A DNA stretch of 64,000 nt, from assembly GCF_006345805.1 (NCBI RefSeq), contig NC_043001.1:40982001-41046000 (forward strand). Reading direction: 5' to 3'. A model generated the notes under the pieces. The model did not search any database, had not been told where the DNA came from, and saw only the letters and a program-made list of their open reading frames with translations. The DNA is from Octopus sinensis. Its lineage: Eukaryota. Positions 2,669 to 6,481 of the stretch are shown here, one piece after another. Each line of letters begins with the position of its first letter. Position 1 is the first letter of the stretch. Position numbers and translations under genes: made by a program.

Positions 2669-2852
2669 TAGAAAGAATAGCTATAACTCTTTGACTGCTA
2701 TTTCTAAATTCGGTGTGTGGTGAGGCAAATCGTTGCTAAACTCTTAATTACTTAGTATTACTTAAACCTTCCTTGAATGGGGCTTTTACATGCCGAAATA
2801 TACTTGGTGAAATTAAGGATTATTCCAAATTAATTAATTTCACCCTATATTT
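2669..2852 (+). mobile_element. 3'-terminal fragment of the element family forming the 49204-50126 palindrome
   Basis: 2669-2758 is nearly identical to 50040-50129 (TAGAAAGAATAGCTATAA...AATTACTTAGTAT). It continues about 95 nt further and ends in (TA)n. Confidence 0.8.
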
Positions 2853-3104
2853 TTATATATATATATATATAATTAATAATATCAAAGGGTAATCAGAAAT
2901 ATTAGTAATTTCCATTACCAGTGGCCTAGCATGCAATAATTTAGTCAATAGACTATATATTATTCATATATAGAAGGTAAATGTTTTTATTTTTCCATTC
3001 CCTTCGAAATTTTATCCCTAATAGTGGTTTGGAATTTAACTGTTCTCTCTAGCCTACAAGGAGTCCTATGATGGATGCCTCTTATGTGTTTAAATGTACA
3101 CTGT

Positions 3105-3135
<31 letters not shown>

Positions 3136-3395
3136 GGAAAATGGATATTAAGTGATGATAATGATGATGGTGGTGGTGGTGGTGGTGACGACGACGATGA
3201 TGACCATGATGAGGAGGAAATTAATATATATATATACATGCACATACACCTATGTGTATATGACTATATGTATATACACCATGTGTGTGTGTGCGTGTGT
3301 GTGTATGTGCATACATTGCATATTATCATCAAGATATATTCATATATATATATACCTAAATAAACACACACACACACTCACATTCATACACTCAT

Positions 3396-3433
<38 letters not shown>

Positions 3434-3499
3434 AAATATACACAACACACACATTCATACACTCATGGATATATATATATATAAATAAATATATATATA

Positions 3500-3537
<38 letters not shown>

Positions 3538-3539
<2 letters not shown>

Positions 3540-4290
3540 CATTATTGGTGAATTGAAGAAATGGAGCTGAACGCAGATTGAACAGAAATCGTTTTATTTC
3601 ATTCTACACGTGTTTCGAAAGGCACAAATTACCAAAATCCGATTGAATAATGGGACCATATTGTGTCTTTCTCTTCAGGAAGAAAAAAGGAAATCCGTTG
3701 GAAAAACAAAAACAGAACAGAGGCGGAGCAAAAAACAAATCGAACTGTGCTCCTAAGAGCCCATGGCGAAACTGTTTATCAGTGTATGTTGAGAACCGGT
3801 GGCTGCAGAATTCAACGGGTCAGGCATCGGTCAATCATGTGGGTGAGGGTGTATAGATGTTCTTTGTGACCGAGAATAAAGTTCTGACTATTTAAAGAAT
3901 ATTGGATGTTTTATAAGGGGCGAGAAAAAATCTACTTAGAGACGTGTGTGTGTGTATACTGTTCTATATATGTGTGTGTTGGCGTAGGGGTAGAAAACAT
4001 TTTTTGTGTACGTGTGTGCGTTTGATCGTTCGGCTGTCAGTGGCTACTGCCGTGATAACCGTTGGGTGGCAGAAAGAAAAAAAATATATAAAAAAATTTA
4101 TATATATATTATGTTTTATGTGTGTGTGTGTGTGTTCATCTAAGCCTGCCTAGACAAGGAAACCCCCCGCTGTGAAAAAACCAAGCCCCGTTTGTCTTAC
4201 AGGAGTAATTTCCCTTGCAGTGGTTAATCGTAGATATCTTAAAGGCTATTTCAGAATTTGTTACCAAGGGCTATGGGTGCCGGTATTATT
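3538..4290 (-). repeat. Left inverted arm (753 bp), reverse complement of 5527-6281
   Basis: End-to-end reverse-complement match. By eye only one substitution (ctgCagaa vs ctgAagaa) and one TA-unit indel. Confidence 0.97.
3597..3688 (-). ncRNA. Type I hammerhead ribozyme (mirror copy)
   Basis: Reverse complement of 6131-6222; TCTTCAG at 3672-3678. Confidence 0.8.
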
Positions 4291-5518
4291 CGGTCATCAG
4301 GATAGGGCCGTATATAATAACATTAACATTTTAAGTAAGGACGGGAGCGCGGCGGATGCCGGGGTAGTCGCTCCCGCATTTAATTTAGCGAACAAGGATA
4401 ATTATCGGTCCGGGAGGTCTTACACTAACCCAAGACCCGTTATTCATCCGAGAATCACCCACCCGAATGCGAGAGCTGGCGTCCCGACCCATCACACTGA
4501 TAGGAATAAGCATATATGGTTTGTAATCCCCTTTGGTAAGCAGATTAGAACTAACCTCCCCCTCATGTTTAGACAAGCCATCGCCAATAACTTCCCCAGA
4601 AATTCCAAATATTACTCCACGGTTAACTCACATAAAGTTAGGATAGCTTTCTCCAACACTAAAAACCTCGCCCAGATAATCGCCTCCCATAATAATAGGC
4701 TACTTACTAAGACCCTATCACCTTTTTCCGGAGGCACAGCCTCTTCCGCTCCCGGTTTAATGCTCAGTAGGAATAATTATAGTAGTAATAATGATATGAG
4801 AGCCAGTACAGTGACACATAATCTCAGCTCCAGCCAGGGAGTACCCACTAGGGGTATAGTTATAAATAGGGGTGTTGTGGTTGACGGTAACAATGGGAGT
4901 AGGGTAGAGAGCCCCATTAGCATCCCCAGCATCATTTCCCGCAATAGCAGTACCACGGGCAGTAGCAATGACAGCACTCTGATAGATAGTGGAGAATCAG
5001 GGGTTATTCCTATAGTTAATAGTGACGTAGTGGAAAATAGAGTAGTAAGCGGCTGCAGGTCTCGGAACGAATATAGTGACAGGAACGCAGTTCTAATTTC
5101 AGAAACCAATCCTAGCAGATTAAGATTCACGTCGGCGAACTCCAAGATCAAAAACGCCGTCTACCAATGCAAGGTTCACACGGACTCAGATGCCTTCACT
5201 TATGTAGGGGCATCATCCTCAAGATTGTCTTTGCGTGTCTCCAACCATTACGCAACTTTTCGGGACGTGAACAAGCGCCAGACCACGGGACTCAGTAAGC
5301 TAATATGGCGACTGAAGGATGCGAACTTAAGCTATAGGCTGGAATGGTCAATTTTGTCGGTGGCCCTCCCATTTGATAGGGGCAGAAGACAGTGCAACCT
5401 TTGTGTCTCCGAACTCTTCCATATTTTGTTTGCCAGAGGCCGGATGGTAAACGGGCTCTTACAGTCGGCTTTTCGATGCCCCCATTGGCGGCGTTACACT
5501 TATCTGGCCTTTAAATAG
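4172..5518 (+). CDS. C-terminal part of a Penelope-like polyprotein: linker plus GIY-YIG endonuclease, no RT
   Basis: KHIWFVIPFGKQIRTNL...NFP...VRIAFSNTKNLAQIIASHN is a PLE linker. AVY...YVG...R..NH...LSKLIWRLK...EWSIL...CNLCVSE...RCPH is a GIY-YIG domain. No stops. The first ~40 codons come from the inverted arm; native coding starts near 4291. Confidence 0.88.
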   Translation: MKKPSPVCLTGVISLAVVNRRYLKGYFRICYQGLWVPVLFGHQDRAVYNNINILSKDGSAADAGVVAPAFNLANKDNYRSGRSYTNPRPVIHPRITHPNARAGVPTHHTDRNKHIWFVIPFGKQIRTNLPLMFRQAIANNFPRNSKYYSTVNSHKVRIAFSNTKNLAQIIASHNNRLLTKTLSPFSGGTASSAPGLMLSRNNYSSNNDMRASTVTHNLSSSQGVPTRGIVINRGVVVDGNNGSRVESPISIPSIISRNSSTTGSSNDSTLIDSGESGVIPIVNSDVVENRVVSGCRSRNEYSDRNAVLISETNPSRLRFTSANSKIKNAVYQCKVHTDSDAFTYVGASSSRLSLRVSNHYATFRDVNKRQTTGLSKLIWRLKDANLSYRLEWSILSVALPFDRGRRQCNLCVSELFHILFARGRMVNGLLQSAFRCPHWRRYTYLAFK

Positions 5519-5526
5519 CGTTTATA

Positions 5527-6281
5527 AATAATACCGGCACCCATAGCCCTTGGTAACAAATTCTGAAATAGCCTTTAAGATATCTACGATTAACCACTGC
5601 AAGGGAAATTACTCCTGTAAGACAAACGGGGCTTGGTTTTTTCACAGCGGGGGGTTTCCTTGTCTAGGCAGGCTTAGATGAACACACACACACACACATA
5701 AAACATAATATATATATATAAATTTTTTTATATATTTTTTTTCTTTCTGCCACCCAACGGTTATCACGGCAGTAGCCACTGACAGCCGAACGATCAAACG
5801 CACACACGTACACAAAAAATGTTTTCTACCCCTACGCCAACACACACATATATAGAACAGTATACACACACACACGTCTCTAAGTAGATTTTTTCTCGCC
5901 CCTTATAAAACATCCAATATTCTTTAAATAGTCAGAACTTTATTCTCGGTCACAAAGAACATCTATACACCCTCACCCACATGATTGACCGATGCCTGAC
6001 CCGTTGAATTCTTCAGCCACCGGTTCTCAACATACACTGATAAACAGTTTCGCCATGGGCTCTTAGGAGCACAGTTCGATTTGTTTTTTGCTCCGCCTCT
6101 GTTCTGTTTTTGTTTTTCCAACGGATTTCCTTTTTTCTTCCTGAAGAGAAAGACACAATATGGTCCCATTATTCAATCGGATTTTGGTAATTTGTGCCTT
6201 TCGAAACACGTGTAGAATGAAATAAAACGATTTCTGTTCAATCTGCGTTCAGCTCCATTTCTTCAATTCACCAATAATGTT
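5527..6281 (+). repeat. Right arm (755 bp), pseudo-LTR/3' UTR of the Penelope-like element
   Basis: Starts 9 nt after the ORF stop; reverse complement of 3538-4290. Confidence 0.97.
6131..6222 (+). ncRNA. Type I hammerhead ribozyme
   Basis: CTGAAGA 6141-6147; stem II GAAAGaCACAA/TTGTGcCTTTC; GAAA 6203-6206; minimal palindromic stem III CACGTG; GTA triplet 6212-6214; short stem I TTC/GAA; AATAAA at 6221-6226. Confidence 0.82.
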
Positions 6282-6430
6282 TTAATTTCAATTATCCGCA
6301 CCAACGCACGGTTGCAACGCCAGATGGTTGTACCTCCAACCGTGCTGTTTACTGCTGTGATTTTTGCTACTAAGGTATCGGTTAAACTTTTGATTAATCT
6401 ACTACAAGATTATTCATCTTTCTATTTCAC

Positions 6431-6481
<51 letters not shown>

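What the first reader, a model, noticed from the sequence alone, without database searches (positions are those of the whole stretch)
3538..6432. RT-less GIY-YIG cassette in 750-bp inverted arms, each with an outward-facing hammerhead, inserted in (TA)n
Seen: near-identical inverted arms, an uninterrupted endonuclease ORF between them, no RT motifs, a one-sided 150 nt tail and (TA)n on both sides. Established: Penelope-like elements encode RT plus GIY-YIG, often integrate 5'-truncated with an inverted pLTR, and carry minimal hammerheads. Inference: a very recent insertion, possibly Naiad-type (tentative). If this same junction recurs, it would be an endonuclease-only, TIR-like mobile unit. The frame is also open back into the inverted arm.
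Basis: partly seen in the sequence, partly recalled or inferred. Interest (0 to 1): 0.8.

Follow-up and report, generated by a model that had tools for sequence, protein, structure and literature searches.

The report
Truncated, inverted copy of Penelope-like retrotransposon
This is one cut-short, back-to-back copy of a young, abundant Penelope-like jumping gene, not an independent endonuclease-only element; across the genome such copies almost always pair one short end with one long end, which likely means that two reverse transcriptases start on the same RNA at two fixed sites.

Summary
The structure is real, but the novel reading fails. The inversion junction occurs once in the 2.7-Gb genome. 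Other copies continue upstream into a reverse transcriptase: a 3,659-nt unit with an 899-aa RT plus C-terminal GIY-YIG frame. The hammerhead core has 2,986 exact hits. In 70 insertions sampled on contig C1, 54 are inverted, with dispersed junctions, and 11 are RT-less but keep the endonuclease. It is not Naiad (N-terminal EN, no hammerhead). It is Hydra-like, but lacks the Hydra linker CxCX5C motif and has a 148-nt tail.

The by-product is more interesting than the locus. Of 51 scorable inversions, 50 pair one short end (6284) with one long end (6432). Junctions are symmetric more often than chance. 5' ends pile up at 6046 with an extra G, likely a capped transcription start. This best fits paired priming on one RNA and is hard to square with simple self-priming. 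Interest 0.4.

The parts
3398..3538 (.). Left (TA)n-rich target microsatellite
   Evidence: TRF
3535..4290 (-). Inverted arm: 3' UTR/pLTR copy ending at the short (S) 3' end, parent positions 2745-3511
3597..3687 (-). Type I hammerhead in the left arm (core at 3678), facing outward
   Evidence: mirror of the right-arm motif
4288..4290 (.). Inversion junction, 3-nt exact microhomology ATT; unique in the genome
4289..5518 (+). 5'-truncated ORF = aa 491-899 of the parent protein (end of the thumb region, linker, endonuclease); no RT core
4706..5155 (+). Ser/Asn-rich linker (approximate bounds) in place of the CxCX5C linker; 166 aa versus a median of 46 in homologs
5156..5518 (+). GIY-YIG endonuclease, Hydra type (AVY..YVG, R, H, CxxC, E, N, CxH; no CCHH)
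   Evidence: motif definitions
5527..6284 (+). Right arm: 3' UTR/pLTR up to the S end
6046..6046 (+). Inferred transcription start (C|AGTT, initiator-like by recall); 135 genomic hits begin here with a non-parental base at -1, mostly G
   Evidence: controls 56, 57
6132..6222 (+). Type I hammerhead; core CUGAAGA at 6141, palindromic stem III, predicted cut after GUA at 6214
6285..6432 (+). 148-nt tail between the two fixed 3' ends S and L
6306..6345 (+). 9-bp stem hairpin in the tail; several short L arms stop at its 3' base
6433..6476 (.). Right (TA)n target microsatellite

Best explanation
The locus is a single 5'-truncated, head-to-head inverted insertion of a young Hydra-like Penelope-like retrotransposon in a (TA)n tract, likely made when two reverse transcriptase subunits primed from opposite target strands at two fixed sites on one RNA. 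Shown: the RT-bearing parent, the unique junction, the two fixed 3' ends S (6284) and L (6432), and the S+L pairing. Inferred: (1) transcription starts at 6046 in the pLTR and gives a capped RNA; (2) the RT-EN protein nicks both strands of (TA)n; (3) one subunit starts at L and the other at S, 148 nt apart, so the tail appears on one side only; (4) each cDNA stops on its own (here at 4288 and 5527) or both run off the same RNA 5' end; (5) the two cDNA ends are joined, here through ATT, and filled in. The RT-less endonuclease frame is a by-product of where the L-primed cDNA stopped. It likely has no sense promoter, because the left arm's inferred start points outward. Odds: about 0.95 for a one-off truncated copy, about 0.6 for paired priming on one RNA.
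For: Junction 27-mer: 1 exact hit in G000. Copies share upstream sequence encoding RT. Unit 3,659 nt, ORF 899 aa; three listed places have an 899-aa open frame. Census of 70 insertions: 54 inverted; 50 of 51 scorable are S+L, 1 is S+S, none L+L; singles split 8 S / 8 L; binomial p 5e-14 against 0.5. Further samples, counted by eye: 19 of 19, 25 of 25, 13 of 13 in the length-biased set, and 4 of 4 in older subfamilies. Junctions within 10 nt of symmetric: 12 of 49 versus 3.0 by permutation (p 5e-5), and 8 of 45 versus 2.1 without the start-site pile. Arms of one insertion differ by 0.5%, arms of different insertions by 2.3% (35 pairs). 114 of 117 3' ends abut (TA)4+. Start site: 135 hits, with 72 G / 25 A / 3 T at -1 among the 100 listed; 0 of 30 loci continue as parent. 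Control sites: 26 hits (2 G) and 27 hits (3 G). In vitro, the anole Poseidon element cuts and extends both strands, starts at two internal sites that define the tail, and is predicted to be a dimer (PMC11167929).
Against: No raw reads or RNA data: no listed contig piece bridged this junction, and the start site is inferred from DNA ends only. Low within-insertion divergence also fits two RNAs from one donor, gene conversion or assembly polishing. Unlike L1 twin priming (recalled), the arms overlap, so the L-primed cDNA must displace the S-primed one or use a second RNA. PMC11167929 saw no difference in start site between strands and did not test pairing. The family-wide microhomology test was confounded by subfamily differences (43 of 64 junctions scored as inserts). 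Copies longer than a start-to-L transcript (L037, L039, L036) need read-through, circular or jumped templates that this model does not itself supply. Sampling by hammerhead match slightly favours two-armed insertions.
Confidence: 0.8

Rival explanations
1. Endonuclease-only, TIR-like unit that moves on its own as a cassette.
For: Near-perfect 756-nt inverted arms and an uninterrupted endonuclease frame with catalytic motifs.
Against: The junction is unique. Eleven of 70 sampled insertions are also RT-less with EN, with dispersed 5' ends; 7 of them are inverted. The ends are unequal (S versus L), as in nearly every other inverted copy. No shared junction was seen among the sampled loci, apart from recurrent breakpoints at the inferred start site.
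Confidence: 0.02
2. Same element, but the inversion arose by self-priming (snap-back) of one antisense strand or cDNA, as proposed for rotifer Penelopes (PMC3846280).
For: Palindromic junctions exist (12 of 49 near-symmetric). In 15 of 49, including this locus, the L arm is the longer one, as snap-back needs. The arms are near-identical.
Against: In 22 of 49 the S arm reaches further 5' than the L arm. A strand started at L cannot template that, and a strand started at S cannot template the tail. Zero-loop palindromes (L121, L196) fit two ends meeting better than a hairpin (inference). Snap-back gives no reason to stop at S.
Confidence: 0.1
3. Two independent priming events on two separate RNA molecules (one per subunit or per complex), with a strand-specific choice of S or L.
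For: It explains overlapping arms without strand displacement, and the 37 of 49 asymmetric junctions.
Against: It does not predict symmetric junctions away from the start site (8 of 45 versus 2.1), nor the L arms that stop inside the tail before S (about 9 in the census). It needs an extra rule to forbid S+S and L+L.
Confidence: 0.25
4. Assembly artefact (chimeric long-read palindrome).
For: This junction was not bridged in the listed contig pieces of four runs (290 pieces not shown).
Against: The flanks differ on the two sides. The arms differ at internal sites. The S+L rule holds across more than 100 loci and older subfamilies. A contig of run X15 shows a loose end of the same arm-to-tail inversion type (place 4200).
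Confidence: 0.03

Closest known systems
Hydra clade of Penelope-like elements (Craig et al. 2021, PMC8557442), e.g. Hydra-1_Obim, Penelope-13_HM
   Same: Single ORF with C-terminal GIY-YIG, DKT motif, no CCHH, CxxC and CxH around E and N, no IFD, canonical hammerhead, (TA)n target. Penelope-13_HM is listed with a 5'-truncated inverted copy and hammerheads on both strands.
   Different: No CxCX5C linker motif, RWL for RWK, two long insertions (899 aa versus about 700), unit 3,659 nt versus generally under 3 kb, tail 148 nt versus the 30-40 bp given for PLEs. The hammerhead sequence differs from the one listed for Hydra-1_oBim.
Poseidon of Anolis carolinensis (PAc; Frangieh et al. 2024, PMC11167929)
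   Same: Two internal RT start sites define the tail; both strands are cut and extended; AT-rich target; uncleaved RNA is the main template.
   Different: A different clade. Its start sites are adjacent and lie inside the ORF; here they are 148 nt apart and upstream of the ORF. Pairing of the two sites within one insertion was not reported in the parts I read.
Adineta vaga Penelopes (PMC3846280)
   Same: Inverted pLTRs, a tail on one inverted pLTR, junction palindromes, Asn-rich in-frame inserts between RT and EN.
   Different: Low copy number; explained there by antisense self-priming, which 22 of 49 junctions here do not fit.
L1 twin priming (mechanism recalled; only the search listing of PMC2837659 seen)
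   Same: Two target nicks prime on one RNA and give a 5' inversion.
   Different: In L1 the second site is variable and the pieces barely overlap; here both sites are fixed and the arms duplicate each other.
Naiad clade (PMC8557442)
   Same: (TA)n target, inverted truncated copies, one-sided tail.
   Different: Naiads have an N-terminal EN, DKA, an IFD and CCHH, and no canonical hammerhead; none of these fits.

Membership tests
EN+ Penelope-like element | Single ORF with RT and GIY-YIG EN in the parent | tested here: met
   899-aa frame with RT motifs and a C-terminal EN; 416 homologs at E<=0.001. Pfam and PDB sequence searches gave no relevant hit.
EN+ Penelope-like element | pLTRs from partial tandem or inverted copies, tail at one end | tested here: met
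   78 exact tandem-junction hits
Hydra clade | C-terminal EN without CCHH; CxxC and CxH around E and N | tested here: met
   CNLCVSE and CPH
Hydra clade | DKG modified to DKT | tested here: met
   QSDKT at aa 124
Hydra clade | N-terminal RWK motif | tested here: inconclusive
   RWL here; of 121 proteins (query included), 115 have RW and 86 have RWK
Hydra clade | CxCX5C linker motif | tested here: not met
   Absent in the parent and in the 10 older-subfamily loci whose linker was printed (two of them only in part); present in 109 of 120 homologs
Hydra clade | No IFD | tested here: met
   RT3-RT4 spacing 63 aa, equal to the median of the 71 proteins scored
Hydra clade | Canonical hammerhead in the pLTR | tested here: met
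   Invariant core and compensatory changes in stem II over 12 copies; cleavage not assayed; no Rfam hit
Hydra clade | (TA)n insertion preference | tested here: met
   114 of 117 3' ends
Hydra clade | Generally shorter than 3 kb | tested here: not met
   3,659-nt unit
Hydra clade | RT phylogeny groups with named Hydra families | not tested
   Named reference proteins were not available to the tools; only unnamed homologs with Hydra motifs
Naiad clade | N-terminal GIY-YIG EN | tested here: not met
   EN is C-terminal
Naiad clade | No canonical hammerhead; DKA motif; IFD | tested here: not met
Non-autonomous TIR-like unit | Same internal junction at several loci | tested here: not met
   1 exact hit

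The most novel reading that the evidence does not exclude
Inverted Penelope-like insertions are made by obligate paired priming: an RT-EN dimer on one RNA starts at two fixed sites, one per target strand. Every inverted copy therefore carries exactly one tail, and both cDNAs can run off the same capped or ribozyme-cut 5' end. This lineage also keeps strict (TA)n targeting without the linker zinc-finger motif proposed to mediate it.
Probability: 0.5. Interest if true: 0.65.

Novelty: new variant of a known kind. Interest (0 to 1): 0.4.

Why it matters
The locus alone is ordinary. The family is useful because PMC8557442 names the formation of tandem/inverted structures, the one-sided tail and microsatellite targeting as unexplained PLE features. 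Here about 3,000 near-identical hammerhead-bearing arms, a 148-nt tail that is easy to score and copies with an open 899-aa frame give hard constraints: S+L pairing, symmetric run-off, cap-like G ends, and (TA)n targeting without the CxCX5C linker. Each can be tested in the in vitro system published for Poseidon. It also warns annotators that such copies look like TIR elements with an endonuclease.

Tried and rejected
Rfam: no hammerhead family hit, only microsatellite-driven miRNA matches.

Pfam on the window frame and on the parent, and a PDB sequence search: nothing relevant.

Sequencing runs: no RNA holder listed. Laying four contig sets on 4140-4440 did not show a piece bridging the junction; uninformative.

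Microhomology test: confounded by differences between copies and the reference copy. Among the 21 of 64 junctions without apparent inserts, 10 had 2 nt or more, against about 16% in the null; I do not lean on it.

Tail folding as a whole is not exceptional (z -1.57).

No pile-up of 5' ends at the predicted ribozyme cut by count (27 hits versus 26 at a control). The script's automatic split of these loci into true ends and variants was thrown off by indels, so I read them by eye.

Selenoprotein recoding as in some Naiads: not needed, the 899-aa frame has no internal stop.

Earlier scan notes: none found. Outputs were cut; redo them compactly. No tree was built, for lack of named references.

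Literature: searches turned up no paper whose listing describes obligate S+L pairing or cap-G ends for PLEs. Subscription papers are outside that library, so this is weak.

Full report
Observation. The arms 3535-4290 and 5527-6284 differ by two substitutions and one 2-nt indel over 758 columns. A frame is open from 4154 to 5518, and its first ATG is at 4565. Hammerhead cores sit at 6141 (+) and 3678 (-), facing outward. A 148-nt tail (6285-6432) is on the right only, and (TA)n lies on both sides. Rfam missed the hammerhead and Pfam missed the endonuclease, so both rest on motifs and homologs, as below.

Parent. A DNA search of the own genome (G000, 2.72 Gb; host not identified) scored 40 of 1,939 candidates, all 97-100% identical over the main match. 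Most matches start at the window's junction only because the copies continue upstream into shared sequence, which encodes a reverse transcriptase. The unit is 3,659 nt (L034) with an 899-aa open frame; three listed places have an open frame of that length. The 23-nt hammerhead core has 2,986 exact hits and the head-to-tail junction has 78. The window copy holds aa 491-899, which is downstream of all RT core motifs.

A 27-mer across 4290/4291 has one exact hit, the window itself. I grouped the first 100 listed hammerhead hits on contig C1 into 70 insertions and fetched them. One row, L125, did not recover its intended match. With arms of 28 nt or more, 54 are inverted and 16 single; three singles show a tiny inverted arm by eye. 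Eleven of 70 keep the endonuclease without the RT active site, 7 of them inverted, with dispersed 5' ends. The cassette is therefore a routine truncation product, not a mobile unit.

Clade. PMC8557442 (parts 1-6 of 10 of the text read; supplement searched and part 2 of 59 read; figures and protein files not seen) defines Naiads by an N-terminal EN and no canonical hammerhead, which rules them out. Its Hydra definition fits on DKT, absence of CCHH, CxxC/CxH around E and N, no IFD, hammerhead and (TA)n. It fails on the CxCX5C linker, which 109 of 120 homologs have. Here it is replaced by a 166-aa Ser/Asn-rich stretch (median 46 aa in homologs), and there is a second insertion of about 65 aa. Older subfamilies at 62-91% identity also lack the motif in the 10 of 14 loci whose linker was printed, two of them only in part. 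I therefore call it Hydra-like and Hydra-derived (inference), not a strict member; no tree with named references was made. The paper links the linker to (TA)n targeting, yet 114 of 117 3' ends here abut (TA)4+ (four loci dropped). Asn-rich inserts between RT and EN have precedent in rotifer Penelopes (PMC3846280, passages seen).

Hammerhead. Twelve copies from the window and older subfamilies keep CUGANGA, GAAAC and GUH, with changes on both sides in 6 of 17 predicted pairs. Stem III is a short palindrome, of the type described as working as a dimer (PMC4209133, passages seen). Cleavage was not assayed.

Two fixed ends, always paired. 3' ends fall at S (window 6284) or L (6432). Singles use them 8:8. 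Of 54 inversions, three were unscorable (L106, L136, L137); 50 of the other 51 are S+L and one is S+S (p 5e-14 against independent use). Other samples, counted by eye, agree: 19 of 19, 25 of 25, 13 of 13 long copies including the window (L049 unscorable), and 4 of 4 in older subfamilies. A one-sided tail is known qualitatively; I found no count of it or pairing model in searches.

One template. Among 49 simple inversions (five complex ones dropped), 12 have both arms ending within 10 nt of each other, against 3.0 by permutation (p 5e-5). Without the start-site pile it is 8 of 45 against 2.1 (p 5e-4). Arms of one insertion differ by 0.5%, arms of different insertions by 2.3% (35 pairs), though a shared donor, conversion or polishing would do the same. 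The S arm reaches further 5' in 22 cases and the L arm in 15. The 22 cannot come from snap-back of one strand, the self-priming model of PMC3846280. About nine L arms stop inside the tail, five of them at the base of a 9-bp hairpin at 6306-6345.

Start site. 5' ends pile up at 6046. There are 135 genomic hits with a non-parental base at -1; of the 100 listed, 72 are G, 25 A and 3 T, and none of 30 fetched loci continues as the parent. Two control sites gave 26 and 27 hits with 2 and 3 G. An added G is the recalled signature of RT copying a cap, so 6046 is likely a capped start. In 10 of 23 G cases the partner arm could also supply the G. At the predicted ribozyme cut the count is no higher than the control, but by eye about 5 of 8 true ends there are symmetric, versus 0 of 7 at the control. 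That is a weak hint that some templates were ribozyme-cut.

Mechanism. PMC11167929 (parts 1-2 of 4 read) shows an anole PLE cutting and extending both strands, starting at two internal sites that bound the tail, with a predicted dimer and uncleaved RNA as the main template. The simplest extension is that the two subunits take one site each on one RNA. At this locus the L-primed strand stopped at 4288, the S-primed strand at 5527, and they joined through ATT. This is inferred from DNA ends only. It needs strand displacement, and it does not explain longer-than-transcript tandems (L037, L039). A two-RNA version remains at about 0.25.

Artefact. Contigs of four runs did not show a piece bridging this junction (290 pieces not shown), so it is unverified by reads. 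Distinct flanks, internal arm differences and the S+L rule across more than 100 loci make an assembly chimera unlikely. The bioRxiv preprint 10.64898/2026.07.22.740005 (part 1 of 5 read) did not bear on the verdict.

Verdict. The family is a new variant of Hydra-like PLE whose ends make an open mechanistic question testable. Interest 0.4.

Noticed in passing
L037 and L039 (G000:C11:51279100-51289000; C17:28153600-28163500): Two complete units in tandem plus an inverted S arm; longer than a start-to-L transcript, so they need a read-through, circular or jumped template.
   Followed up: partly
L187, L194, L195, L196, L199: Both arms begin at or within 4 nt of the predicted hammerhead cut (window 6215), giving near-perfect palindromic junctions; a hint of in vivo cleavage.
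   Followed up: partly
L069 and L137, next to the family arms: Both carry the same unrelated inserted sequence, probably another repeat nested in older copies.
   Followed up: no
L193 and L199: Two separate inverted S+L insertions within about 1 kb (L193) or 100 nt (L199) of each other; (TA)n tracts are hit repeatedly.
   Followed up: no
Runs X1-X19: The family's words are held at shares of 0.52-0.91 by runs under four organism labels, so near-identical copies may be shared by close relatives.
   Followed up: no
P0019: A homolog named 'GATA zinc finger domain-containing protein 14-like, partial' by its source is a Penelope-like RT; likely a misannotation.
   Followed up: no
L224-L237: A ladder of older subfamilies (62-91% aa identity), several with open frames of 856-908 aa, the same two ends and a fast-evolving Asn/Ser linker.
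   Followed up: partly
window:11988-12446: A 253-bp two-copy tandem repeat, unrelated to this element.
   Followed up: no
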